Shown here: piece by piece, positions 2,205 through 50,334 of the stretch | Layout of the letters: every line of letters starts with the position of its first letter | Numbering within the stretch: position 1 is the first letter of the stretch | Assembly (NCBI GenBank): GCA_964436825.1 | Contig: CAYTEO010000004.1 | Coordinates: 28,372 to 92,371 of the forward strand | Source of the DNA: an uncultured Fibrobacteraceae bacterium | GTDB lineage: Bacteria; Krumholzibacteriota; Krumholzibacteriia; LZORAL124-64-63 | Direction of reading: 5' to 3' | DNA: 64,000 bases | The notes under the pieces: generated by a model | Seen by the model: the letters and a program-made list of their open reading frames with translations, nothing else | Database searches by the model: none | What the model was told of the DNA's origin: nothing | Position numbers and translations under genes: made by a program

Positions 2205-2385
2205 CCAGGGCCCCTGTCCGGTCGGGCCTGGACTCATACCAGATCAGTATGGTATAGTATAGGCCTCTCTCGATACTGCACGATAGCGGGGCCCAGAGGC
2301 CGAACGCTCCGGTGGCACGGAACGGACGTGCGGGTGCCGGGGATCGTCGCTCCCGCGGCCCCCGAACGCCCGGAGGCCTCGCCCA

Positions 2386-4393: not shown

Positions 4394-6300
4394 ATGAATC
4401 GCCCTCATCGCCGATTCTGGCACACCGTCGTGGCGGTGTCCACGGCCCTGCTGGTCGTGGTCGCCGTCGTGGCGATGGCGATCCGCGGACGGCACGACGA
4501 CGGGCCCAGGACCATCGACCTCTCCCGCCTGCCCCGGCACCTGCCCTACGCGTTCCGTCTTCCGAGAACCACCTACCGTTACACCTTTCGACAAGGCTAC
4601 AATTACCTGTTCACGCGGGACGAGTCCGGCACGGTCAGGTCGTACTCGTTCAACGATGTGGGCCTGGTGGCGGACCGCTGGCGGGGCAAGCGATTCGAGG
4701 ATCTCTGGCAGCACAATCCGCCACCCGCTTCGGACCGGTCTCGCAGGCGCGTCTCTCCCTCGCCCACGACGTGGACGGAGACGGCCGCACGGATGTCCTG
4801 CTGGCGCTCTCCACACCCGACGGCAGCGAGTGACTGGTGGAGGGGCTGGACCGGGACAGCAGCACCGTCCTGTCCCGCGTGACGTTGACCGGTGGGCCTG
4901 ACCTGCGCGAGGACGGCCGCTGGGACGGACTGTATCACGTGGTGGGACTGGACGAGGTGCCGGCAGGGGGTGAGACGGTTCGCGCCTGCATCATGATCGT
5001 CCTGGCCGGTCACGATCGGGTTCCCCGCGGTGCCCTGGCGGTGGCGGTGGATGACGGCCGTGTTCTCTGGGAGTACAGGATGGGCGCGAAGCCCGCCCTG
5101 GAGTACACCTTCCTCGCCGACCTGGACGGCGACGGCCGTCGTGAGCTGCTGGTGGCGATCAAGGACAGGGTCCGCGACCACGGCGCCCTGCTGGTCCTGG
5201 ACCCCGCTTCCGGACGGCAGAGGACCGCACTGGTGTGGCCCCAGGGTCTGGTCGGGCCTGTCCTGGTGCCGGGAGGGGACGGACCCGCAGAGCTGCTGGT
5301 CTCCTCCTGGGACGGTGATCTGCATCTGTTCCGCTGGGACGGCGGCCCACCGCCCTGGCTGCCGCTCCCGCCCGCCCTGCTGGTCGCGATCGGCGCCTGG
5401 TGGTATCTGCGTCGACGCCGCCGCAGCAGCAGCGTGGCGCGCATGGCGCGACGCCAGCTGCTGGCGTCGCTACGCCTGGCCAACCATGGCGCCACGGGAC
5501 AGGCCCACGCGCTGCAGGCCTATGTGGGTCTGCTGCGGATCGCCGCCTCCGGGAGGGGGGACGAGGAGCGGCTCCGCCGGCGCCTCGCCGACCGCGCGGC
5601 GGACCTGCTGGACGGGACGCTGCCCGAGCTGCGCGAGCAGCTGGACATGGCCCGGCTGGCCGGCCTGGACGAGCACGAGATCGCCCTGGCGGAGGCCTGC
5701 GCGGCGCGGATCGAGGAGCTTGTACAGGAGACGGAGGCGGCGCCGACGGTTGCGCGCTGCCGTGCCGTCGCCGACGAGCTGGCGGGACAGGCGGATCGCC
5801 TGGCGGGGCACCTGCGTGCCCTGCGGCGGGAGATCCTGCGCGGCTTCCGTACCGACCCCGCGGCGGTACAGCGGCGGGTCCTGGACGCGCACGCCGCCAT
5901 GATCGAGAAGGACGGCGTGACGCTGGATGCCCCCGATCCCCGGGTTCCGCCGGTGGCGGTGGCGCCGGAGGACCTGACCTTCATCCTGGATAACCTGGTG
6001 GCCAACGCCCTGCAGGCCATGGCCGGCGGCGCGACGCGGCGGTTGTCGTTGACGTGGGAGGCCGCTGGGGAGAGGGTGGTCTGCCGCGTGGCGGACACCG
6101 GCTGCGGCCTGCCGCGTGATCTGTGGGAGCGTGCCCTGGACACCACTTTCTCCACGCGCGAGGGCGGCGGGACGGGCCTGCCGGCCTCGCGGGAGAAGCT
6201 GCGGGCCTGTGGGGGCAGCCTGGAGATCGAGAGCAGCGAGGTGGGTCGGGGGACGGTCTTCGTCCTGACCCTGCCGGTCGTGGAGGAGGGGGCGGCGTAA
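4394..6300 (+). pseudogene. sensor histidine kinase (TM - periplasmic FG-GAP/beta-propeller-like sensor - TM - HATPase_c), reading frame disrupted by one frameshift (~4715-4745) and an in-frame TGA (4831-4833)
   Basis: Frame 2 from ATG 4394 gives TM1 (WHTVVAVSTALLVVVAVVAMAI) and a plausible periplasmic sequence up to …FEDLWQHNPP. Frame 1 then reads …RFGPVSQARLSLAHDVDGDGRTDVLLALSTPDGSE, stops at TGA 4831, and continues as LVEGLDRD…FLADLDGDGRRELLV…TM2 (LLVAIGAWWYL)…N-box LDNLVANALQA, G1 DTGCGLP, G2 GGGTGLPASR. The DxDGDGRxxLL repeats continue across both breaks, so this is one gene. Confidence 0.6.
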
Positions 6301-6330
6301 CCGTGCCGCGGCAGAAGGGGGGAGAACGCG

Positions 6331-7506
6331 ATGACGAACGGGACGTCCCGCCCGCGCGTCCTGCTGGTGGACGACGACCGGGCCTTCTGGGAGGACCTGG
6401 CCCTCTACCTGGAGGCGGACCACGAGCTGTTCTTCGCACCGGACCCGCTCGCCCAGCGGCGCGACGGGCGCCGCTCCCGCGGCGACCTGGTCCACGCCGA
6501 CCCAGCCATGGCCCGCCTCCTGGACCACCTGGCCGCGGTGGCCGCCACCGACACCACCGTCCTGCTGACCGGCGAGAGCGGCACCGGCAAGGAGATGGTG
6601 GCCCGCTGGATCCACGAGCGCAGCGGGCGTGCCGACGGTCCCTTCTGGGCGGTCCACTGCGCGGCCCTGCCGGAGAACCTGATCGAGAGCGAGCTGTTCG
6701 GCCACGTCCGCGGTGCGTTCACCGGCGCGGACCGCGACCACGCCGGCGCCTTCGACCTGGCCCGGGGCGGCACGCTGCTGCTGGACGAGATCGGCGAGGC
6801 GCCCATGGCCGTGCAGGTGAAGCTGCTGCGGGTGCTGGAGAACCGGGAGTACAAGCGGGTGGGCGGGGAACGGATGCTGCGGACCGACGTCCGCCTGGTC
6901 TGCGCCACGCGCCGGGACCTGCGCCGGGAGGTGGCCGCCGGCCGTTTCCGCGACGACCTCTTCTACCGCATCAGCGTGGTGCAGGTGGAACTGCCGCCGT
7001 TGCGCGTGCGCCGCGGGGACATCCCGCGGCTGGCCGAGCACTTCGTCCGCCTCTACGCCGCACAGCTCGGCAAGCCGCTGGTGGGCCTGACAGAGGCGGC
7101 CCTGCAGGACCTGGCGGGCCGCTCCTGGCCCGGCAACGTGCGCGAGTTGCGCAACGTCATCGAGCGGGCCGTCATCGTGGCGCGCGGCGACCGGGTGACC
7201 CTGGCCGACCTGGCCGTCCCCTCCACCCTGACCGCCGCCGCGGACTTTCCGCACTACGAGTCCCTCAAGCAGGCCACGCAGCTCGAGTTCGACACGGGCT
7301 ACATGCTGGAACTGATGATCCGCGCCCGGGGCAACGTCATCCGCGCCTCGGAGCTGAGCGGCCTGTCGCGGACCTCCATCTACCGGCTGCTGGACCGCAC
7401 CGGCTTGCGCGAGAAGTTCGAGACCGGATATTTCAAGCGCCGGCCCGTCGAGGGAGACGCCTGCGAGGAGGAAAACGATGAAGGACAGGGTGTCGCGGTT
7501 TCGTGA
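6331..7506 (+). CDS. sigma-54-dependent transcriptional activator (NtrC/Fis family) with a truncated, non-functional-looking receiver N-terminus
   Basis: AAA+ sigma-54 interaction domain: Walker A GESGTGKE, ESELFGH, GAFTGA, arginine finger region, and a C-terminal Fis-type HTH (TSIYRLLDRTGL). N-terminus RVLLVDDDRAFWEDLALYL looks like receiver beta1-alpha1, but only ~55 aa precede the AAA+ domain. Confidence 0.85.
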   Translation: MTNGTSRPRVLLVDDDRAFWEDLALYLEADHELFFAPDPLAQRRDGRRSRGDLVHADPAMARLLDHLAAVAATDTTVLLTGESGTGKEMVARWIHERSGRADGPFWAVHCAALPENLIESELFGHVRGAFTGADRDHAGAFDLARGGTLLLDEIGEAPMAVQVKLLRVLENREYKRVGGERMLRTDVRLVCATRRDLRREVAAGRFRDDLFYRISVVQVELPPLRVRRGDIPRLAEHFVRLYAAQLGKPLVGLTEAALQDLAGRSWPGNVRELRNVIERAVIVARGDRVTLADLAVPSTLTAAADFPHYESLKQATQLEFDTGYMLELMIRARGNVIRASELSGLSRTSIYRLLDRTGLREKFETGYFKRRPVEGDACEEENDEGQGVAVS

Positions 7507-23979: not shown

Positions 23980-24145
23980 GGCGGCGACCTCGGTTGGACA
24001 GAGGGGGTGGTCGGATCGTTCGCCGGGATGATCGGTCCCCGGCGGCCACGGGGCAAGGGAGATCCCGGGCAACGCCCTGCAGGGCGGGCGACCGCTCCGT
24101 CCTTGCGCCGCCGCCGCGGGGTGACGATCTTTCGAGGAGAGCCTC

Positions 24146-24170
24146 TATCCTATTGAAATAGTGGGGGATA
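24146..24170. promoter_or_regulatory. AT-rich nested inverted repeat (candidate operator) upstream of the NifX/MinD operon
   Basis: TATCC-TATTGAAATAG-TGGG-GGATA: outer IR TATCC/GGATA enclosing CTATT-ga-AATAG, 41 nt upstream of ATG 24211, in the divergent marC/nifX-like spacer. A conspicuous AT island in a ~70 % GC context. Confidence 0.3.
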
Positions 24171-24210
24171 TACCGACGGCGGCAGCGTCGGGCCGCCGGG
24201 GAGGAGCCGA

Positions 24211-24571
24211 GATGAAGGTCGTCGTCACAGCGCTGGGACAGGACCTGGACAGCGAGGTCGATCCCCGCTTCGGCCGGGCCCACTGGATGATCCTGGCCGA
24301 TACCGGTTCGGACGCGGTCGAGGTGCTGGACAACCGCGACCAGGCGTCCGCCGGCCAGGGTGCCGGGGTCCAGGCGGCGCAGCTGGTCATCGCGGCGGGG
24401 GCCGAGGCCCTGCTGACCGGCCACTGCGGTCCCAAGGCGTTCCAGGTCCTCGAGGCCGGCGGGGTGGCCGTCTACTCGGGCGTGACCGGCACCGTCCGCG
24501 AGGCGCTGCGGAAGCTGCGCGACGGCGAGCTGGAGCCCAGCGGCGGGCCCGACACGGCCGGCCACTGGTAG
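24211..24571 (+). CDS. NifX/NifB-C-terminal-like (dinitrogenase FeMo-cofactor-binding family, PF02579) protein
   Basis: GGAGGAG RBS before ATG 24211. MKVVVTALGQDLDSEVDPRFGRAHWMIL…AQLVIAAGAEALLTGHCGPKAFQVLEAGGVAVY fits the family pattern (GRAxxF, GxCGxxA). Confidence 0.7.
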
Positions 24572-24593
24572 GAACGGACCGGGGAGGGTTGCC

Positions 24594-25448
24594 ATGCGGA
24601 TCGCGGTCGCCAGCGGCAAGGGCGGGACCGGCAAGACGACCGTCGCGGTCGGACTGGCCGTCCTGGCGTCCCGTGCGGGCCTGCCGGTCCGCCTGGGCGA
24701 CTGCGACGTCGAGGAGCCCAACGCCCACCTCTTCCTCCAGCCCAGCTTCGGCGAGTCCGTGCCGGTGAAGGCGGAGATCCCCGTCGTCGACCAGGACCGC
24801 TGCGACCACTGCGGTGCCTGCGGCGAGATCTGCCAGTTCAACGCCATCGCCTGCCTGCCCGACAGGACGATCGTCTTCCCCGACCTCTGCCACAGCTGCG
24901 CCGGCTGCTGGCTGGTCTGTCCCCGCGGGGCCATCGCCACCACGGACCGTGTCCTGGGCGAGGTGAGCAGCGGCCCGGCCGACGGGATCGCGTGCGTCAG
25001 GGGCAGGCTGCGCGTCGGCGAGACGGTCGTTCCGCCCCTGGTCCGGGAGGTCAAGCGACGGGCGGCGGGCGACGGGGGGTGGGTCATCCTGGACGCGCCG
25101 CCGGGGGCGTCGTGTCCCGTCGTCGAGACCCTCCGCGACGCCGACTTCGTCCTGCTGGTCACCGAGCCGACACCGTTCGGACTGCACGACCTGGCCGTGG
25201 CCGTCGAGCTGGTCCGCTCGCTGGGGCGGCCGTGCGGGGTCGTCGTCAACCGGGCCGGCAGCGGGGACGACCGGGTGGAACGGTTCTGCGCCGAGCAGGG
25301 GATCGAGATCGCGGCCAGGCTGCCGTTCAGCAGGGCCGTGGCCGAGGCCTACGCCCACGGCAGGCTGGCCGTCGACGCCGACCCGGCCGTCGGCGATGCC
25401 ATGGCCGGCCTGGTGGCATGGCTGCGCGAGAGGGAGGTGCGGTCGTGA
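24594..25448 (+). CDS. MinD/ParA/CooC-like P-loop ATPase with embedded 4Fe-4S ferredoxin domain
   Basis: Deviant Walker A ASGKGGTGKTTV. Two CxxCxxC clusters (CDHCGACGEIC, CHSCAGCWLVCP). Confidence 0.8.
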   Translation: MRIAVASGKGGTGKTTVAVGLAVLASRAGLPVRLGDCDVEEPNAHLFLQPSFGESVPVKAEIPVVDQDRCDHCGACGEICQFNAIACLPDRTIVFPDLCHSCAGCWLVCPRGAIATTDRVLGEVSSGPADGIACVRGRLRVGETVVPPLVREVKRRAAGDGGWVILDAPPGASCPVVETLRDADFVLLVTEPTPFGLHDLAVAVELVRSLGRPCGVVVNRAGSGDDRVERFCAEQGIEIAARLPFSRAVAEAYAHGRLAVDADPAVGDAMAGLVAWLREREVRS

Positions 25449-26338
25449 CCGAGCTCGTCGTCTGCAGCGGCAAGGGGGGGACGGGCAAGACGAGCGTGCT
25501 GGCCTCGTTCGCCGCGCTGTCGGCCGGCGGCGCCGTGCTGGCCGACGCCGACGTCGACGCCGCCAACCTCCACCTCGTCCTCGCGCCGCGGCGGTGCCAC
25601 GCCGAGCCGTTCATCAGCGGGCACGTGGCCGTCATCCGGCAGCAGGACTGCACGGGCTGCGGGACCTGCCACGATCTCTGTCGCTTCGATGCCATCGTCC
25701 GGGAGCCGGGCGACGACGGCTGGCGCTTCCGGGTCGACCCGGCGGCCTGCGAGGGCTGCGGTGTCTGCGTCCACTTCTGTCCCACCGGCGCCATCGACTT
25801 CCCCGACGCCCGCTGCGGCGAGTGGTACCTGTCGGAGACGCCCTACGGGCCGCTGGTCCACGCCCGTCTCGAGCCTGGCGCCGAGAACTCGGGCAAGCTG
25901 GTCACCCTGGTGCGCGAGAAGGCGCGCCAGGAGGCCGAGCGGGCGGGCCGGGAGTTGATCCTGGTGGACGGACCACCTGGGATCGGCTGCCCGGTGACCG
26001 CCGCGCTGACCGGCGCCGACGTCGTCCTGCTGGTGGCCGAGCCGAGCCTCTCCGGTCTGCACGACCTGGAGCGGGTCGTCGAGCTGGCGGCCCATTTCGG
26101 CGTGCGGGCGCTGGCCTGCGTCAACAAGGCGGACCTGAGCGAAGAGCTGACCGGCCGGATCGAGCAGTGGTGCGCCGAGCGCGGCGTGCCGGTGGCGGGG
26201 CGGATCCCGTTCGATCCCGCCGTGACGCGGGCCCAGCTCGAGGGTCGCAGCCTCGTCGAGGCGGCACCCGGGTCGGCGGCCGGCCGGGCCGTCCGCGCGC
26301 TCTGGGAACGGGTTCGTCGCGAGCTGACAGGAGGATGA
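25445..26338 (+). CDS. second MinD/ParA-like P-loop ATPase with 4Fe-4S ferredoxin domain (paralogue of previous gene)
   Basis: GTG 25445 overlaps the upstream stop (GTGA). Walker A CSGKGGTGKTSV. Cys clusters CTGCGTCHDLC and CEGCGVCVHFCP. Confidence 0.8.
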   Translation: MTELVVCSGKGGTGKTSVLASFAALSAGGAVLADADVDAANLHLVLAPRRCHAEPFISGHVAVIRQQDCTGCGTCHDLCRFDAIVREPGDDGWRFRVDPAACEGCGVCVHFCPTGAIDFPDARCGEWYLSETPYGPLVHARLEPGAENSGKLVTLVREKARQEAERAGRELILVDGPPGIGCPVTAALTGADVVLLVAEPSLSGLHDLERVVELAAHFGVRALACVNKADLSEELTGRIEQWCAERGVPVAGRIPFDPAVTRAQLEGRSLVEAAPGSAAGRAVRALWERVRRELTGG

Positions 26339-26343
26339 CGCGG

Positions 26344-26682
26344 ATGATCATCGCCGTGCCCACGGCCGGGGGCCTGCTGACGCCCCACTTCGGCCACTGC
26401 GAGCAGTTCGCCCTGGTGGAGGTGGATCCCGACGCCGGGAGCGTCGGCGAGGTCCGCCTGGTGACCCCGCCCCCGCACGCACCGGGCATCCTGCCGGTCT
26501 GGCTGGCGGAGCAGGGGGTCGACCTGGTCCTGGCCGGCGGCATGGGCGGCCGCGCCAGGCAGCTGCTGGAAGGGGCGGGTGTCGAGGTGATCCTGGGGGT
26601 GGCCTCCGCCGCGCCGGACGAGCTGGCCCGCGCCTGGCTCGACGGTTCCCTCCCGACCGGGGAGAACGCCTGCGATCACTGA
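26344..26682 (+). CDS. NifX/NifB-like FeMo-cofactor-binding family protein (second copy)
   Basis: RBS AGGAGG before ATG 26344. MIIAVPTAGGLLTPHFGHCEQFALVEV…LVLAGGMGGRARQLL… has the same family signature as 24211..24571. Confidence 0.7.
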   Translation: MIIAVPTAGGLLTPHFGHCEQFALVEVDPDAGSVGEVRLVTPPPHAPGILPVWLAEQGVDLVLAGGMGGRARQLLEGAGVEVILGVASAAPDELARAWLDGSLPTGENACDH

Positions 26683-26688
26683 CTCGGC

Positions 26689-27519
26689 TCAGTGGCTGTC
26701 CGACACGCCCCGCTGCCGCCGCGCCTCGTAGGCCAGCAGCGCCGCCGCCACGCTGACGTTCAGGGAGTCGGCCGCTCCCAGCATGGGGATCCGGCAGCGC
26801 ACGTCGGCCGCCCCCAGCAGCCCTGCCGACAGGCCCGTGTCCTCCGCGCCCAGCAGGATGGCCACCGGCCCGGTCAGGTCGATCTCGGTGTGCAGCATGT
26901 CGGCGTCGGGGGTCGTCGCCACCAGCGCCAGGCCGCGCCCGCGCAGCCAGGGCACCAGCTCCGCGGACGGCAGCTCGAGGACGGGCACGCTGAAGACGGC
27001 GCCGGTGGAGGCGCGCAGGGCGTTGGGGTTCCAGGGATCGGCCCCCGCGCCGCAGGCGATGACGGCGTCGACCCCCGCCCCGCTGGCCGTGCGGACGATC
27101 GCCCCCAGGTTGCCGGGCTTCTCGACCTCCTCCAGGACCAGGACCAGCGGCGACGGTGGCAGCGCGAGGTCGGCGGGTGACCAGGCCGGCGGCGTCGCGA
27201 CGACGACCAGCCCCGCCGGGTGCTTCCGGTAGGCGATCTTCTCCAGGACGGGAGGGGAGACCTCGACGACCAGGGCGTCGCCGGCGGTCAGCGGCGGCAG
27301 CAGGGCCGCCGCCTCGGGGTGGGCGGCCACGACCTCGGGGCAGTGGTAGACCTCGCGGACGGCGACACCGGCGGCCAGGGCCCGCGCCACCACCCGCGGC
27401 TCCTCCATCACGAAGACCCCCTCCTCGCGGCGGTGGCGGCGCTCCCGCAGGCGGACCAGCCGCTTGACGCGGGGATTCTGCAGGCTGGTCAGCCGCAATG
27501 GCTCGCGCGGCGCGCTCAC
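26689..27519 (-). CDS. TrmH/SpoU-family RNA 2'-O-methyltransferase (RlmB-like)
   Basis: SPOUT motifs LVLVLEEVEKPGNLGAIVRTA, ILLGAEDTGLS and LNVSVAAALLAYE. GTG start at 27519 overlaps the thioesterase stop (GTGA). Confidence 0.8.
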   Translation of the reverse strand: MSAPREPLRLTSLQNPRVKRLVRLRERRHRREEGVFVMEEPRVVARALAAGVAVREVYHCPEVVAAHPEAAALLPPLTAGDALVVEVSPPVLEKIAYRKHPAGLVVVATPPAWSPADLALPPSPLVLVLEEVEKPGNLGAIVRTASGAGVDAVIACGAGADPWNPNALRASTGAVFSVPVLELPSAELVPWLRGRGLALVATTPDADMLHTEIDLTGPVAILLGAEDTGLSAGLLGAADVRCRIPMLGAADSLNVSVAAALLAYEARRQRGVSDSH

Positions 27520-29317: not shown

Positions 29318-29371
29318 TTGACAACCGGAAGCAGGGGATTAAAGTGTAGATCATGCTTGAACACTTGCTCA
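29318..29371 (+). promoter_or_regulatory. sigma-70-like promoter with ArsR/SmtB-type operator (imperfect 6-2-6 inverted repeat) for the arsR-P1B-ATPase operon
   Basis: TTGACA (29318-23), 16-nt spacer, TAAAGT. Inverted repeats AAGTGT…ACACTT (29342-66) and TGAACAcTTGcTCA (29358-71) resemble SmtB/CzrA operators (TGAACA…TGTTCA) and overlap the -10/+1 region, 13 nt before ATG 29384. Confidence 0.4.
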
Positions 29372-29383
29372 AATGAGGTTGAT

Positions 29384-29749
29384 ATGTTGGTTGACGTCTG
29401 CCAGCAGCACCAGGAACACGACGCGCTGATCGCCGCGGGCCGGCAGCGCCTGCCCGATCCCGACGCCATGCGCGAGGTGGCCGACTACTTCGACGCCCTG
29501 GGCAACCCGACCCGCCTGACGATCCTCTACGCCCTGGCCGGCGGAGAGCTGTGCACCTGCGACCTGGCGCGGATCGCCGAGCTGTCGGTCTCGGCCATCT
29601 CCCACCAGCTGCGGATCCTGCGGGACCGCCGGCTCCTCGTCTCCCGCAAGGAGGGCAAGAACGTCTTCTACCGTCTGCGTGACGAGCACGTGGCGGATCT
29701 GCTGCGGGTGGCCCTGGACCACCAGCGGGAGGACCGTCGCCATGGCTGA
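29384..29749 (+). CDS. ArsR/SmtB-family metal-sensing transcriptional repressor
   Basis: wHTH with metal-binding ELCTCDLA (alpha3 CxC), DNA-recognition helix SVSAISHQLRILRDRRLL, plus N-terminal Cys/His. Stop overlaps the ATPase start by 8 nt. Confidence 0.85.
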   Translation: MLVDVCQQHQEHDALIAAGRQRLPDPDAMREVADYFDALGNPTRLTILYALAGGELCTCDLARIAELSVSAISHQLRILRDRRLLVSRKEGKNVFYRLRDEHVADLLRVALDHQREDRRHG

Positions 29750-37319: not shown

Positions 37320-37592
37320 GATTCCCTCCATTGGTGCCGGGTGGCACCGGATCGAGATGGAACAGATCGTGCACCGACGCCGTTCGCCCGCTGCGGGTTG
37401 CGGGTGACAGCGACGACCTCGGCGAGTGGTCAGTCGGTGCGATACCTAGGCGGGGGAACATCACTCTAGCATTTTTTCTCTCCATATTGCAAGAGCGTCT
37501 TCAGGTCGGAGGGTCCCGCGATCCTGCCAGCCGGGCGACCCTGTTCCGGGGATCGCCGTTCGCTCCGCTTGTCCGGCCGCGACCGGTGACCT

Positions 37593-40796: not shown

Positions 40797-41987
40797 ATGG
40801 GCGCACCCTCCGTCTCCGCCGTCCAGCTGCGGGAGATCCTCCGTCCGGTCCGGGAGGCGCACCGTCTCGACCTGGTCGGCGTCGTCGCGCTGCCCCGGGC
40901 GCTGCCGCACACGGCGGCGTGGCTGAACTGGCTGCTCGAGGGTCGCCACGGCGACCTGGCGTACCTGCTGCGGGATCCCCACGCCAGGGCGGACCCCACG
41001 CGGGAGCGGCCCTGGGCCCGCTCGCTGATCGTGGTCGCCCAGCGCTACGTCAACGGGTGGGAGCGCGACGACCCCGAGGCCGTGGCCGGCGTGGCGGCCG
41101 GTGGCTCGTGGCTGGCCGGCGTCTCCCGCTACGCCCGCGGCCGTGACTACCACGATGTCCTGCGGCGCGCCCTGCGACGACTGGTCCAGGTGCTGCGCGA
41201 GGAGCTGATCGCGCGGGGGATCATCGCCCGCTACGACGACCTGCGGGCCGAGACCGCCGTCGACGCCGGGCCGTTCCTGGAGCGCGAGTGGGCCTGGCTG
41301 GCGGGGCTCGGTTTCATCGGCAAGAACACCATGCTGATCCACCCCCGGCTGGGATCGGGGCTGTTCCTGGGGGTGGCGGTCCTGGGCCTGGAGGTCGAGG
41401 CGCTGGCCGACGCTCCCCGCCCCCTGCTCGGCCCGCCGGCCCAGCGGCTGCCCGAACCGGAGGGGATGGCCTCGCTCTGCGGCCACTGCACCGCCTGCCT
41501 GGACGCCTGCCCCACCGGAGCGCTGGTGGCGCCGCTGCGACTGGACGCCGGCCGCTGCCTGTCGACCTGGTCCATCGAGTGGCGGGGCGGGGCGCCGCCG
41601 GGGGAGAGGCCGGCCCAGGGCGGCCTGCTGTTCGGCTGCGACGTCTGCCAGCAGGTCTGTCCCTGGAACCACAAGGCGGCCCGGCTGTTGACCGATCCGC
41701 CGGCGGCCGCCTACGCCGAACTGCCCGGGCACGGCGAGCTTTCGCTGGCGGACCTGATGACGATCGACGCGCAGACGTTCCGGCGGCGGTTCCGCCACAC
41801 TCCCCTGTGGCGCTGTCACCCCGAGGGGATGCGCCGCAACGCCCTGATCGTGGCGGCCAACACGGGGAGGCGGGACCTGCGGCGGGTCATCGAGGCCGTC
41901 GCCGCCGGCGATCCCGACCCCGGCGTGCGCGAGACGGCCGGCTGGGCCCTGTCGCGGCTCGACCCCGGCGGAGGGGAGGAGGAGTGA
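40797..41987 (+). CDS. queG: epoxyqueuosine reductase
   Basis: Two 4Fe-4S motifs CGHCTACLDACPTGA and CDVCQQVCPWN. B12-binding/tRNA-binding N-terminal region (…GFIGKNTMLIHPRLGS…). C-terminal HEAT-like repeat (DPDPGVRETAGWAL). Confidence 0.85.
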   Translation: MGAPSVSAVQLREILRPVREAHRLDLVGVVALPRALPHTAAWLNWLLEGRHGDLAYLLRDPHARADPTRERPWARSLIVVAQRYVNGWERDDPEAVAGVAAGGSWLAGVSRYARGRDYHDVLRRALRRLVQVLREELIARGIIARYDDLRAETAVDAGPFLEREWAWLAGLGFIGKNTMLIHPRLGSGLFLGVAVLGLEVEALADAPRPLLGPPAQRLPEPEGMASLCGHCTACLDACPTGALVAPLRLDAGRCLSTWSIEWRGGAPPGERPAQGGLLFGCDVCQQVCPWNHKAARLLTDPPAAAYAELPGHGELSLADLMTIDAQTFRRRFRHTPLWRCHPEGMRRNALIVAANTGRRDLRRVIEAVAAGDPDPGVRETAGWALSRLDPGGGEEE

Positions 41988-43681: not shown

Positions 43682-44077
43682 TCACCACGGCTGCCGCCAC
43701 GCCGGCGGTTCGCCCAGCCAGCCCTCGCGCCGGTGGGCGACGCGGACGTAGGTCGTGATCCCGCCGCGGACGAACCACTTGGCGTCGATCTCCAGGAACC
43801 ACGGATCGAGCAGCCGGACCAGGTCGGCCAGGATCTCGCCGGTCACCCTCTCGTGGAAGGCACCCACGTCGCGGTAGGTCCACAGGTAGAGTTTCAGGGA
43901 CTTCAGCTCGACGCACAGCTCCCGCGGGATGTAGCGGATCTTGAAGTGGGCGAAGTCCGGCTGCCCGGTCAGGGGGCAGAGGCAGGTGAACTCCGGGCAG
44001 TCGAACAGGATCTCGTACTCCCGGTCCGGGTGGGGGTTCGGGAACGTCTCCAGGTCGCGGGACGGCTGGGTCGGCAT
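43682..44077 (-). CDS. queF: NADPH-dependent 7-cyano-7-deazaguanine (preQ0) reductase
   Basis: Start ATG 44077 (MPTQPSRD…). QueF motifs ILFDCPEFTCLCPLTGQPDFAHFKIRY (Cys nucleophile) and ELKSLKLYLWTYR. 131 aa, unimodular type. Confidence 0.85.
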   Translation of the reverse strand: MPTQPSRDLETFPNPHPDREYEILFDCPEFTCLCPLTGQPDFAHFKIRYIPRELCVELKSLKLYLWTYRDVGAFHERVTGEILADLVRLLDPWFLEIDAKWFVRGGITTYVRVAHRREGWLGEPPAWRQPW

Positions 44078-44296
44078 GCTGTGACCTCCGTTGGGGTTGG
44101 GTCCAGGATAGTGATCGCCGCCGCGGCGGGCAAGCCGACATCCGTTGGTGCGCCCCCGATCCCTAGGGGTTAGCATGGCCGACCGGAGGGGCCACCGGCC
44201 GGCGGGAGGTCAAGCCGCCCCCGCGCCGACCGATGGAACGGGGGTACCGCTGCGACAGGCGGCACGCGGGCCATGACCGAGCGACACGGGAGAGAG

Positions 44297-49114: not shown

Positions 49115-49197
49115 GTTGGCGGGGGCGTACTAGATCGATGTTATTATAGCTCAATTCCCGAGGGGCTACAACGGGCGTGAGCCGGAGGTGGCGACGG

Positions 49198-50334
49198 ATG
49201 CGGGTGTTGCTGCTGGAACCCTACGACGGCGGATCTCACCGAGCCTTCCGGCTGGGGCTGGCCCGGCATTCCCGGCACCGGATCGAGGCGCTGACCCTCC
49301 CGGCCCGTTTCTGGAAGTGGCGGATGCGGGGCGCCGCCGTCTGGTTTGCCGACCGGATCGCCGGGCTGGCCGAGCCCGCCGACCTGCTGCTGGTGACCGA
49401 CTATCTCAACGTGGCCGATCTCAAGGGGTTGCTCCCGCCGTCCTGGCACCGGGTGCCGATCCTGCTCTACATGCACGAGAACCAGCTGACCTATCCCCTG
49501 TCGCCGGAGGAGGAGTTCGATTTCCACTTCGGCTTCACGAACATCGTCAGCTGCCTGGCCGCCGACCGGGTCGTCTTCAACTCCGGGTACCACCGCGACC
49601 TGTTCCTGGAATCACTGCCCGAATACCTGGGCCGGATGCCGGAGGCCGTTCCCCGCGACGTCCGCCCCCGCCTGGAGGCCAAATCGACGGTCCTGCCGGT
49701 GGGAATCGAGCGGCGACCGCACCCGTCGGACAGTTTCGCCCCCTACCTGGGCGGACGGTGCGAGCCGGGGCTGGGGCCGGACTGGCCCCGCGGCGGACGT
49801 CGGCACCTGGTGCTGTGGAACCACCGCTGGGAGTTCGACAAGCGTCCCGAACGGTTCCGGCGGGCGATCCTCCGGCTGGCCGACGCCGGTCTGGAGTTCG
49901 ACCTCGCCCTGCTGGGGGACCCCCGCGGGCACGAGGAGGTCTTCCAGCCCTTGCGCGATCGGCTCGGCGAGCGCATCGTGGCGTGGGGACATCAGCCCGA
50001 CCGCGGCGTGTACGAGCGGTGGCTCGAACGCGCCGACATCGTCGTCAGCACGGCGGCCCAGGAGTACTTCGGGATCGCCGTGGCCGAGGCGGTCCATGCC
50101 GGCGCCTATCCCGTCCTGCCGCGGGAGCAGGTCTATCCTTCCCTGTACGGTCGCCGCTGCCGCGGGCGACACCTCTACCGGGACGAGGACGAGCTGGTCG
50201 GATTGCTGACCGACCTGCTGACCGGCGACGGGTGCGGGCACGTCTGTTCCCTGCCCCTGGACGTGGACGAGGCCTGCTGGGAGCGGCTGGCCCCCCGGTA
50301 CGACGAGCTGTGCGAGGAGATGTGCCGCCGATGA
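49198..50334 (+). CDS. DUF3524-domain glycosyltransferase (GT4-like; homologous in architecture to eukaryotic GTDC1/QTMAN tRNA-queuosine mannosyltransferase)
   Basis: GGAGGTG RBS 7 nt before ATG 49198. Hallmark DUF3524 N-terminus MRVLLLEPYDGGSHRAF. C-terminal GT1/GT4-type region …VSTAAQEYFGIAVAEAVHAGAYPVLP… (EX7E-like). Confidence 0.75.
   Translation: MRVLLLEPYDGGSHRAFRLGLARHSRHRIEALTLPARFWKWRMRGAAVWFADRIAGLAEPADLLLVTDYLNVADLKGLLPPSWHRVPILLYMHENQLTYPLSPEEEFDFHFGFTNIVSCLAADRVVFNSGYHRDLFLESLPEYLGRMPEAVPRDVRPRLEAKSTVLPVGIERRPHPSDSFAPYLGGRCEPGLGPDWPRGGRRHLVLWNHRWEFDKRPERFRRAILRLADAGLEFDLALLGDPRGHEEVFQPLRDRLGERIVAWGHQPDRGVYERWLERADIVVSTAAQEYFGIAVAEAVHAGAYPVLPREQVYPSLYGRRCRGRHLYRDEDELVGLLTDLLTGDGCGHVCSLPLDVDEACWERLAPRYDELCEEMCRR

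What the first reader, a model, noticed from the sequence alone, without database searches (positions are those of the whole stretch)
24080..26682. NifX-like / MinD-ferredoxin / MinD-ferredoxin / NifX-like four-gene operon with AT-rich palindromic operator
Two paralogous P-loop ATPases, each carrying two CxxCxxC ferredoxin clusters, are flanked on both sides by small NifX/NifB-C-terminal-family (FeMo-cofactor-binding-like) proteins. The genes are spaced by 22, -4 and 5 nt and preceded by strong GGAGG RBSs. This arrangement recurs in anaerobes but is functionally uncharacterised; a metallo-cofactor or Fe-S carrier and insertion role is presumed. No nitrogenase genes are in the window, so the NifX-like proteins must serve another cofactor. 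The promoter region holds a nested inverted repeat (TATCC-TATTGAAATAG-TGGG-GGATA, 24146-24170) that stands out as an AT island and is a candidate binding site for an Fe/redox regulator.
Basis: partly seen in the sequence, partly recalled or inferred. Interest (0 to 1): 0.5.

Follow-up and report, generated by a model that had tools for sequence, protein, structure and literature searches.

The report
Minimal orange-protein (ORP) complex operon
The four genes are a compact version of the "orange protein complex" cluster known from sulfate-reducing bacteria, a widespread anaerobe machine that handles metal-sulfur clusters and whose cellular role is still unclear; the proposed operator upstream is not supported.

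Summary
The four genes exist exactly as described: 24212-24571, 24594-25448, 25445-26338 and 26344-26682, with spacings of 22, -4 and 5 nt and a GGAGG-type RBS before each. The domain calls are also right.

The cassette is not an orphan. It is a minimal form of the ORP (orange protein) complex cluster of Desulfovibrio.
- g1 is most similar to the D. gigas orange protein (PDB 2WFB, 44% identity).
- g2 and g3 have the Orp3/Orp4 architecture: a MinD-like ATPase with two [4Fe-4S] motifs.
- g4 is a free-standing copy of the C-terminal domain of MrpORP, including its HFGHCE and CDH motifs.

NifX-like / ATPase / ATPase / NifX-like is the commonest single gene order among 83 loci from more than 15 phyla. 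Many relatives add an Mrp domain, a DUF134 regulator or an OrpR-like sigma-54 activator. The window has none of these, and no nif genes.

The "operator" is two 5-bp arm pairs that share one base (9 pairs). It is not significant once the whole intergenic region is scanned, and relatives do not share it. They carry a different, strongly conserved palindrome, TGAGCATATGCTCA. The AT island is real and probably marks the promoter.

Verdict: a new member of a known kind. Interest is modest.

The parts
24138..24172 (.). AT-rich island in the 232-bp MarC/g1 intergenic region. It is the probable promoter region of the operon, or possibly a bidirectional one.
   Evidence: 25-nt windows with GC of 36% or less occur at only 6 places in 64 kb. 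Five are intergenic and one is in the tRNA gene. GC dips to 0.57 in a 60-nt window. The consensus scan found no sigma-70-type match here, and there is no sigma-54 -24/-12 match.
24146..24170 (+).
   Evidence: Present in the sequence. It gives 9 nested pairs. 62 of 300 shuffled intergenic regions reach that score. DNA fold z is +0.46. The inner 12-mer is unique in the window. It is absent from relatives.
24212..24571 (+). g1: small Di-Nase/NifX-like protein of the orange-protein (Orp8) subfamily, 119 aa.
   Evidence: PF02579, E 2.2e-22. Best PDB match is 2WFB, the D. gigas ORP: E 2.6e-24, 50 of 114 residues identical. The subfamily motifs DPRFGRA, GAGI, TGxCGPxA and C-terminal GHW are conserved in 76 relatives.
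24594..25448 (+). g2: MinD-like deviant-Walker-A ATPase with a 2x[4Fe-4S] ferredoxin insert (type A; Orp3/Orp4 architecture), 284 aa.
   Evidence: Motifs: GKGGTGKT; DCDVEEPN with Cys37 (99% conserved); 8 ferredoxin Cys; DAPPGxSCP with Cys174 (100% conserved). The AF2 model has pLDDT 93.9 and its best fold match is archaeal MinD.
25445..26338 (+). g3: paralogous MinD-like ATPase with a 2x[4Fe-4S] insert (type B), 297 aa, GTG start overlapping the g2 stop.
   Evidence: 38% identical to g2. It has 8 ferredoxin Cys and an invariant Cys182 in DGPPGIGCP. Type B follows type A in 80 of 83 loci.
26344..26682 (+). g4: small Di-Nase protein of the MrpORP C-terminal-domain subfamily, 112 aa.
   Evidence: PF02579, E 1e-19. 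It matches positions 265-365 of NCBIfam NF041136 MrpORP, E 1.5e-32. H15, H18, C19, H45, C110 and H112 are conserved, forming HFGHCE, PPHxPG and a terminal CDH. These are the motifs reported for the MrpORP Di-Nase domain (PMC6345978).

Best explanation
The cassette is a minimal, single-operon version of the ORP (orange protein) complex cluster.

Shown by homology and comparative genomics:
- g1 is an orange-protein (Orp8-type) small cluster-binding protein.
- g2 and g3 are the Orp3/Orp4-type pair of MinD-like ATPases, each carrying two [4Fe-4S] ferredoxin motifs.
- g4 is a free-standing copy of the Di-Nase domain that is fused to an Mrp ATPase in MrpORP (Orp9). It keeps that domain's His/Cys motif.

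Inferred mechanism:
- g2 and g3 form an ATP-dependent heterodimer, with the deviant Walker A acting as an ATP "sandwich".
- The four [4Fe-4S] clusters of the dimer, plus conserved interface cysteines, give it redox and metal-handling capacity. These cysteines are Cys37 and Cys174 in g2 and Cys182 in g3. The Cys lies 7 residues after the Walker B Asp, the same spacing as the switch II cluster ligand of NifH.
- The dimer docks the two small NifX-like carriers. g1 holds a non-covalently bound metal-sulfide cluster (Mo-Cu-S in Desulfovibrio). g4 holds an Fe-S cluster through His/Cys ligands.
- The machine assembles, stores or hands over a metal-sulfur cluster under anoxic, reducing conditions. It is unrelated to nitrogenase.

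The window lacks the dedicated Mrp loader, so Fe-S loading would have to come from housekeeping systems.

The operon is most likely transcribed from the AT island about 40-70 nt upstream of g1, under regulation that differs from that in Desulfovibrio.
For: Identity of the four proteins:
- g1's best solved relative is the D. gigas ORP.
- g4 matches the MrpORP C-terminal domain and has its HFGHCE and CDH motifs (PMC6345978).
- g2 and g3 have the architecture published for Orp3/Orp4.

Comparative genomics:
- In relatives such as L009 and L019, the gene in g4's position scores 517-539 bits against the NCBIfam MrpORP equivalog (cut-off 450). In L052 a MrpORP gene (518.5 bits) lies just upstream of the ATPase pair.
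- The type A then type B pair is adjacent in 80 of 83 loci.
- The x1-A-B-x4 order is the commonest architecture (11 loci, plus 1 with a duplicated x1). A further 18 loci show the same order with Mrp added.
- The DUF134 (Orp7-type) gene and PAS-sigma-54 activators (OrpR-type) recur next to the pair, in 22 and 21 of 84 loci.
- Natural A-B fusion proteins are common: about 30 of the top representatives are 580-710 aa with two matched stretches, as is L065. This argues that A and B act together.

Published biochemistry: Orp3 co-purifies with Orp4 and Orp8, and MrpORP transfers Fe-S clusters to them.

Fold: g2 is MinD/Mrp/HypB/NifH-like.
Against: - Orthology of g2 and g3 to Orp3/Orp4 therefore rests on architecture and on shared neighbours.
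- The window lacks Mrp, DUF134, DUF5320, OrpR, the OrpR site and a sigma-54 promoter. It is not the full Desulfovibrio system.
- The physiological function of the ORP complex is itself unresolved; the published hypothesis is cell division.
- The metal content of g1 outside Desulfovibrio is unknown.
- The NifH-like role proposed for Cys174/Cys182 is inferred from motif spacing only.
Confidence: 0.6

Rival explanations
1. A cell-division or positioning system. The two MinD-like ATPases would act as ParA/MinD-type spatial regulators, redox-gated through their Fe-S clusters, as proposed for the Desulfovibrio ORP complex.
For: The best sequence and fold matches of the P-loop core are archaeal MinD and FleN/FlhG. 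orpR inactivation gives morphological defects in D. vulgaris and MrpORP localises to a cell pole.
Against: - Scores against the MinD NCBIfam models are far below cut-off (56-77 bits against 201.75).
- No MinC/MinE or other division gene lies in the neighbourhood.
- The recurring partners are metal-cluster proteins and Mrp Fe-S carriers, not cytoskeletal proteins.
- The published division link is indirect; the papers themselves call it a hypothesis.
Confidence: 0.15
2. An ATP-driven low-potential reductase, NifH- or BchL-like. The g2/g3 dimer would use ATP hydrolysis to push electrons through its ferredoxin inserts into a cluster held on g1 or g4. Electron transfer, not cluster delivery, would be the main output.
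For: A deviant Walker A ATPase combined with Fe-S clusters is the logic of NifH. There is an invariant Cys 7 residues after the Walker B Asp. NifH-like proteins appear among the fold matches. Precomputed annotations give faint PF00142 Fer4_NifH hits in relatives.
Against: No catalytic partner of the NifDK, BchNB or CfbD type lies in the window or recurs among the neighbours. The similarity to NifH is weaker than to MinD or Mrp. This rival overlaps the main explanation rather than excluding it.
Confidence: 0.15
3. Ordinary nitrogenase cofactor (FeMo-co) maturation, with the NifX-like proteins serving nif genes located elsewhere in the genome.
For: Both small proteins belong to PF02579, the family of NifX, NafY and the NifB C-terminal domain.
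Against: - There is no nif gene in 64 kb.
- The best relatives are ORP, MTH1175 and TM1816-type stand-alone proteins, not NifX or NafY.
- The cassette occurs in many lineages with no nif genes among its recurrent neighbours.
Confidence: 0.02
4. The nested inverted repeat at 24146-24170 is the operator of a dedicated Fe/redox-sensing repressor or activator of the operon.
For: It sits in the only AT island of the intergenic region, about 40-65 nt upstream of the start codon. The inner 12-mer is unique in the window. Only 6 of 20000 same-composition 25-mers are as symmetric.
Against: - 21% of shuffled intergenic regions contain an equally good repeat.
- The arms are only 5 bp and the outer pair is offset by a 4-nt bulge.
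- Relatives do not conserve it.
- No regulator gene is adjacent.
- It differs from the OrpR site and from the DUF134-associated palindrome.
- Contigs of the same population are identical here, so there is no variation to test.
Confidence: 0.2

Closest known systems
[quoted passage not shown]
   Same: The cast of protein types is the same: an orange-protein-type Di-Nase protein, two paralogous MinD-like ATPases each with two [4Fe-4S] motifs, and a Di-Nase domain with HFGHCE and CDH motifs. The genes are clustered. The lineages that carry the cluster are anaerobe-type.
   Different: - Here there is one four-gene operon instead of two divergent three-gene operons.
[quoted passage not shown]
- There is no DUF134 (Orp7) gene.
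- There is no OrpR activator, OrpR palindrome or sigma-54 promoter.
- The host is a bacterium related to Krumholzibacteriota/Latescibacterota from a marine iron mat, not a sulfate reducer.
Orange protein of Desulfovibrio gigas (PDB 2WFB)
   Same: g1 aligns over its full length at 44% identity (E 2.6e-24). It shares the DPRFGRA, GAG and TGxxGP motifs.
   Different: Whether g1 binds the [S2MoS2CuS2MoS2] cluster is unknown. g1 has a Cys in the TGHCGP motif where the D. gigas protein has Val.
NifX / NafY / NifB C-terminal domain (FeMo-co carriers of nitrogenase)
   Same: Same Pfam family (PF02579). The role is the same in general terms: a small carrier of a complex metal-sulfur cluster working with a SIMIBI-class ATPase.
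   Different: There is no nif context. The nearest solved relatives are non-nif stand-alone proteins. g4 has a His/Cys motif typical of the MrpORP domain.
MinD / Mrp-Nbp35-ApbC / ATPase-type HypB / CooC / NifH (SIMIBI deviant-Walker-A ATPases)
   Same: The P-loop fold, the signature lysine and the switch regions are shared. The metallochaperone members (Mrp, HypB, CooC) and NifH use ATP-dependent dimerisation to bind or deliver metal centres at the dimer interface.
   Different: An insert of roughly 60 residues, carrying the two [4Fe-4S] motifs, follows switch I. No solved structure has it. Scores are below the cut-off of every named NCBIfam family.

Membership tests
ORP complex gene cluster (Desulfovibrio type) | An orange-protein (Orp8) homologue is present | tested here: met
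   The best PDB hit of g1 is 2WFB, the D. gigas ORP: E 2.6e-24, 44% identity over 114 columns.
ORP complex gene cluster (Desulfovibrio type) | Two paralogous MinD/ParA-like ATPases, each with two [4Fe-4S] ferredoxin motifs (Orp3/Orp4) | tested here: met
   The architecture and the paralogy (38% identity) are shown. Direct alignment to DVU2103/DVU2104 was not possible, so orthology is inferred from shared neighbours.
ORP complex gene cluster (Desulfovibrio type) | A full-length MrpORP (Orp9): Mrp P-loop domain fused to a Di-Nase domain | tested here: not met
   g4 covers only positions 265-365 of NF041136 (113 bits against a cut-off of 450). No Mrp-like gene is in the window. Relatives L009, L019 and L052 do pass the cut-off.
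ORP complex gene cluster (Desulfovibrio type) | The Di-Nase domain carries CxHFGHCE and terminal CDH motifs | tested here: met
   g4 has HFGHCE at residues 15-20 and ends in ...NACDH. These residues are conserved at 90% or more in 50 relatives, except Cys19, which is conserved at 80% or more. The motifs are described in PMC6345978.
ORP complex gene cluster (Desulfovibrio type) | Sigma-54 promoter, adjacent OrpR activator and the OrpR site GGGCGYRTTTTGCGCCC | tested here: not met
   The intergenic region has no -24/-12 match. There is no OrpR site within 3 mismatches near the operon. The only sigma-54 activator (6331-7506) is 17 kb away and lacks the PAS domain.
ORP complex gene cluster (Desulfovibrio type) | A DUF134 (Orp7) gene in the cluster | tested here: not met
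   tblastn with three DUF134 proteins finds nothing in the window. The gene is present in 22 of 84 related loci.
ORP complex gene cluster (Desulfovibrio type) | The proteins form a physical complex and bind Fe-S and Mo-Cu-S clusters | not testable with these tools
   Needs co-purification and metal analysis. The only indirect support is that natural A-B fusions exist.
Nitrogenase FeMo-co carriers (NifX/NafY/NifB-C) | PF02579 domain | tested here: met
Nitrogenase FeMo-co carriers (NifX/NafY/NifB-C) | nif gene context (nifHDK, nifEN, nifB) | tested here: not met
   None was found among about 50 ORFs of the window, and none among the recurrent neighbours in 84 loci.
MinD septum-site ATPase | Reaches the family score and has MinC/MinE partners | tested here: not met
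   TIGR01969 scores 56 and 77 bits against a cut-off of 201.75; TIGR01968 scores 25 and 46 bits against 212.9. No min genes are nearby.
Mrp/Nbp35/ApbC Fe-S carrier | Reaches the family score and has a CxxC motif after Walker B | tested here: not met
   ApbC NF008669 scores 21 bits against a cut-off of 348. The motif here is PPGxxCP with a single Cys. The PF10609 domain-level hit is above its Pfam cut-off (47 bits against 27), so the relationship is at superfamily level only.

The most novel reading that the evidence does not exclude
The four-gene core (ORP-type carrier, A/B MinD-ferredoxin heterodimer, His/Cys Di-Nase carrier) could be an autonomous, ancient, ATP- and redox-driven machine for assembling or delivering a metal-sulfide cluster. 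It would be built on the same logic as NifH plus NifX, but would serve non-nitrogenase clients such as Mo/W or other complex metalloenzymes. The Mrp, DUF134 and OrpR parts would be lineage-specific add-ons. On this reading the window shows the irreducible set, and in a non-sulfate-reducer.
Probability: 0.2. Interest if true: 0.6.

Novelty: new member of a known kind. Interest (0 to 1): 0.3.

Why it matters
The ORP complex is widespread in anaerobic bacteria and archaea. The ATPase family alone has 840 clusters at 50% identity with E of 1e-30 or better. It has been studied biochemically for about 15 years, yet its cellular job is still unknown.

Placing this cassette in that family replaces "uncharacterised" with a concrete literature and a concrete set of experiments.

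The comparison across 83 loci also suggests which parts are core and which are optional. The core is the ATPase pair plus two different NifX-like carriers. The optional parts are Mrp, DUF134, DUF5320, a Zn-ribbon protein and the OrpR-like activator. That is useful for choosing a minimal system to reconstitute.

For this window itself the result is mostly a correct annotation, not a discovery.

Tried and rejected
- Riboswitch or leader RNA in the 232-bp intergenic region: no Rfam match even at E up to 10. Fold z-scores are -1.5 on the plus strand and -2.3 on the minus strand. Rejected for lack of evidence.
- Sigma-54 promoter or OrpR site upstream of g1: none.
- The DUF134-type palindrome in the window: none within 3 mismatches near the operon.
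- Sigma-70 consensus promoter upstream of g1: the scan found none. Its only hit, 26324-26351, lies at the g3/g4 junction.
The three other contigs carrying the locus are the same population and are identical in the intergenic region. The next relatives are only 66% identical in g2 and are not syntenic. Contigs of closer relatives found through IMPDH (83-86% identity) stop before the cassette. No informative comparison exists.
- Fetching the Fievet 2011 J Bacteriol paper: not held.
- L058 (Maridesulfovibrio) turned out to be a different A-B pair followed by a CGGC-domain gene, not the orp locus.
- Literature searches for DUF134/UPF0251/Orp7 function returned nothing relevant.
Full report
**1. 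What is in the sequence**

Four genes lie head to tail on the plus strand.

| Gene | Coordinates | Length |
|---|---|---|
| g1 | 24212-24571 | 119 aa |
| g2 | 24594-25448 | 284 aa |
| g3 | 25445-26338 | 297 aa (GTG start overlapping the g2 stop by 4 nt) |
| g4 | 26344-26682 | 112 aa |

- The gaps are 22, -4 and 5 nt. Each start is preceded by a GGAGG-type RBS.
- Public gene calls on three other contigs of the same population give the same four products.
- g1 and g4 match PF02579 (Nitro_FeMo-Co), with E values of 2e-22 and 1e-19.
- g2 and g3 match the CbiA/ParA P-loop families. Each carries two C-x2-C-x2-C-x3-C motifs. They are 38% identical to each other.
- The flanking genes point the other way: a MarC-family membrane protein upstream and a SpoU-type RNA methyltransferase downstream. 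The unit is therefore a self-contained operon.
- Pfam scans of about 50 ORFs across the 64 kb found no nitrogenase, hydrogenase or CODH genes.

The descriptive part of the finding is correct.

**2. What it is**

- NCBIfam places g4 on positions 265-365 of the model for MrpORP, the "iron-sulfur cluster carrier protein MrpORP" (E 1.5e-32).
- The best solved relative of g1 is 2WFB, the orange protein (ORP) of Desulfovibrio gigas (E 2.6e-24, 44% identity).

Both results point to the ORP complex of D. vulgaris Hildenborough. According to PMC6345978, the complex consists of:
- Orp3 and Orp4: similar to each other, each with two [4Fe-4S] ferredoxin motifs;
- Orp5: a Di-Nase protein;
- Orp8: the orange protein, which holds a non-covalent S2MoS2CuS2MoS2 cluster;
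- Orp9, also called MrpORP: an Mrp/NBP35 P-loop domain fused to a Di-Nase domain.

The same paper reports further points.
- Orp3 co-purifies with Orp4 and Orp8.
- MrpORP transfers Fe-S clusters to these proteins.
- The MrpORP Di-Nase domain carries a CxHFGHCE motif and a terminal CDH.

g4 has HFGHCE at residues 15-20 and ends in NACDH. H15, H18, C19, H45, C110 and H112 are conserved in 50 relatives. g1 has the different motif set of the ORP subfamily: DPRFGRA, GAGI, TGxCGP and a terminal GHW.

**3. Comparative genomics**

One scan of species-representative genomes returned 80 loci. They come from Armatimonadota, Acidobacteriota, Planctomycetota, Desulfobacterota, Chloroflexota, Bacillota, Bathyarchaeia, Altiarchaeota and others. 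Six further loci came from the nearest metagenomic relatives.

I called ORFs in all of them and classified each by similarity to g1-g4.
- A g2-like gene (type A) is followed directly by a g3-like gene (type B) in 80 of 83 loci. The other three are cut by contig ends.
- The exact order g1-like / A / B / g4-like is the commonest single architecture: 11 loci, plus one with a duplicated g1-like gene.
- Another 18 loci have the same order with an Mrp-type ATPase gene next to, or fused to, the g4-like domain.
- The fused proteins of L009 (Armatimonadota) and L019 (Planctomycetales) sit in g4's position. The one of L052 (Desulfobacteraceae) lies just upstream of the ATPase pair. All three score 517-539 bits against the MrpORP equivalog, whose cut-off is 450. 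These loci therefore encode a bona fide MrpORP next to the ATPase pair.
- The window differs from loci such as L009 and L019 by lacking the Mrp half.

Families that recur around the ATPase pair:

| Family | Loci (of 84) |
|---|---|
| DUF5320 | 40 |
| Zn_ribbon_8 | 30 |
| DUF134 (the Orp7 type) | 22 |
| PAS-sigma-54 activators (the OrpR type) | 21 |
| Metallo-beta-lactamase fold | 17 |
| ARMT1-like | 14 |
| Radical SAM | 12 |
| CGGC | 10 |

- In the window I tested for DUF5320, the Zn-ribbon protein, DUF134, Mrp and CGGC, and found none. The only match to the OrpR-type activator is the PAS-less sigma-54 activator 17 kb away.
- An exhaustive HMMER search gave 840 representative clusters at E of 1e-30 or better. 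About 30 of the best hits are 580-710 aa proteins with two matched stretches. These are natural A-B fusions, as in L065, and they argue that A and B work as a pair.

**4. Features of the ATPases**

Both keep the deviant Walker A motif GKGGTGKT with the signature lysine.
- Type A has DCDVEEPN, with Cys37 conserved in 99% of relatives.
- Both types have an invariant Cys in D-x-PPG-x-x-C-P: Cys174 in g2 and Cys182 in g3.
- From my own knowledge of NifH (Asp125 and Cys132 of switch II), this Cys has the same spacing, seven residues after the Walker B Asp, as the cluster ligand that couples nucleotide state to the [4Fe-4S] cluster. This is an inference, not a test.

An AlphaFold2 model of g2 is confident (pLDDT 93.9).
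- Its best fold matches are archaeal MinD, followed by FleN/FlhG, ATPase-type HypB, ApbC and NifH-like proteins.
- No solved structure contains the ferredoxin motifs inserted after switch I.
- Scores against every named NCBIfam family (MinD, ApbC, ParA) are far below cut-off.

**5. How it most likely works**

Shown: the homology and the conserved gene partnership described above.

Taken from the literature: complex formation by Orp3, Orp4 and Orp8, their Fe-S content, Fe-S loading by MrpORP, and expression only under reducing conditions.

Inferred for this cassette:
- g2 and g3 form an ATP-dependent heterodimer carrying four [4Fe-4S] clusters.
- The dimer docks the two small carriers. g1 holds a non-covalently bound metal-sulfide cluster. 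g4 holds a His/Cys-ligated Fe-S cluster.
- The machine assembles, stores or passes on a metal-sulfur cluster.
- Without a dedicated Mrp, the Fe-S clusters would come from housekeeping systems.

The published alternative is a role in cell division. It rests on the MinD similarity, the morphology of an orpR mutant and the polar localisation of MrpORP. I rate it lower because every recurrent partner is a metal-cluster protein. It is not excluded.

**6. The upstream region**

The intergenic region is 232 bp (23980-24211). The AT island at 24138-24172 is real. It is one of only six 25-nt stretches with 36% GC or less in the window. Five are intergenic and the sixth lies in the tRNA gene. It is a reasonable candidate for the promoter region.

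The palindrome is weak.
- It consists of two 5-bp arm pairs that share one base (9 pairs).
- 6 of 20000 same-composition 25-mers match it, but 62 of 300 shuffled intergenic regions contain one as good.
- It shows no hairpin signal.

No promoter or known operator could be identified.
- There is no sigma-70 consensus match and no sigma-54 match.
- There is no OrpR site.
- There is no Rfam family match.

The nearest relatives (66% identity in g2) have a different upstream arrangement.
- A divergent DUF134 gene sits upstream of their cluster.
- The 100-bp spacer contains a perfect palindrome, TGAG[CT]ATATACTCA, overlapping a TTGACT-17-TATACT promoter.
- This palindrome (consensus TGAGCATATGCTCA) recurs in distant phyla. 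There are 7 exact matches against 0.1 expected, and 23 matches with at most one mismatch against 2.5 expected.
- It lies 17-45 nt upstream of most of the 14 (of 23) DUF134 genes that have a copy nearby.
- The window has neither this site nor the DUF134 gene.

**7. Source**

The locus is on contigs of the Loihi Seamount iron-mat metagenome (accession prefix AMFO01). The named relatives closest to the window's IMP dehydrogenase are Latescibacteria and Krumholzibacteria, at 71-78% identity.

**8. Verdict**

- This is a new member of a known kind: a minimal ORP cluster in a lineage outside the sulfate reducers.
- Interest is modest. Its main value is that it points to the core gene set of a system whose function is still open.

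Noticed in passing
L084 3147-3160; L086 7551-7564; L088 7559-7572; also L026 5868, L027 124, L037 5177, L043 4311, L060 1860, L080 7836, L072 9583 and 9963: A 14-bp palindrome, TGAGCATATGCTCA (variants TGAG[CT]ATATACTCA), sits 17-45 nt upstream of most DUF134 (PF02001, Orp7-type HTH) genes, or directly upstream of ORP-like operons, in distant phyla. Across 1.2 Mb there are 7 exact matches against 0.1 expected. 14 of 23 DUF134 genes have a copy nearby. It looks like the operator of the DUF134 regulator, and I found no description of it in the papers searched.
   Followed up: partly
L065 6889-9009; proteins P0249-P0277: Natural fusions of the two MinD-ferredoxin paralogues into single 580-710 aa proteins with four ferredoxin motifs are common. 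This supports an obligate A-B pair.
   Followed up: partly
window 24017-24129: There are interleaved GC-rich imperfect inverted repeats in the MarC/g1 intergenic region: 24030-24058 with 24101-24129 (29 nt, 76% complementary) and 24017-24029 with 24062-24074 (13 nt, 85%). There is no Rfam match, and the fold z-scores are only -1.5 (plus strand) and -2.3 (minus strand). They could belong to a MarC leader or be chance in 71% GC DNA.
   Followed up: partly
window 40797-41987, 43682-44176, 49177-50334: Three queuosine-related genes lie within 10 kb: a QueG-like epoxyqueuosine reductase, a QueF-like protein, and a protein with the N-terminal domain of tRNA-queuosine alpha-mannosyltransferase (PF12038, E 2e-61). 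The last hints at a glycosylated queuosine in this bacterium.
   Followed up: no
window 2232-2262, 29336-29395, 37455-37496, 49124-49162: These are the other AT islands of the window, and all are intergenic. 2232-2262 contains the palindrome ATACCAGATCAGTATGGTAT. 29336-29395 lies upstream of an ArsR-type regulator plus heavy-metal P-type ATPase operon and contains TGAACACTTGCTCA.
   Followed up: no
window 4837-7506: A histidine kinase (4837-6300) and a sigma-54 activator without a PAS domain (6331-7506) show that the organism uses sigma-54. They are 17 kb from the cassette, and no OrpR-type site links them to it.
   Followed up: partly
window 26677-26694: CACTGA-CTCGGC-TCAGTG is a 6-bp-stem hairpin spanning the convergent stop codons of g4 and the SpoU-type methyltransferase. 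Both proteins end in His-stop, so it is probably coincidental. There is no T-run terminator after the operon.
   Followed up: no
whole window: The source is the Loihi Seamount iron-mat metagenome (AMFO01). The lineage is close to Krumholzibacteriota/Latescibacterota by IMP dehydrogenase (71-78% identity to named MAGs), and the window is 71% GC. Several secreted proteins carry FlgD_ig C-terminal domains, as in relatives.
   Followed up: partly
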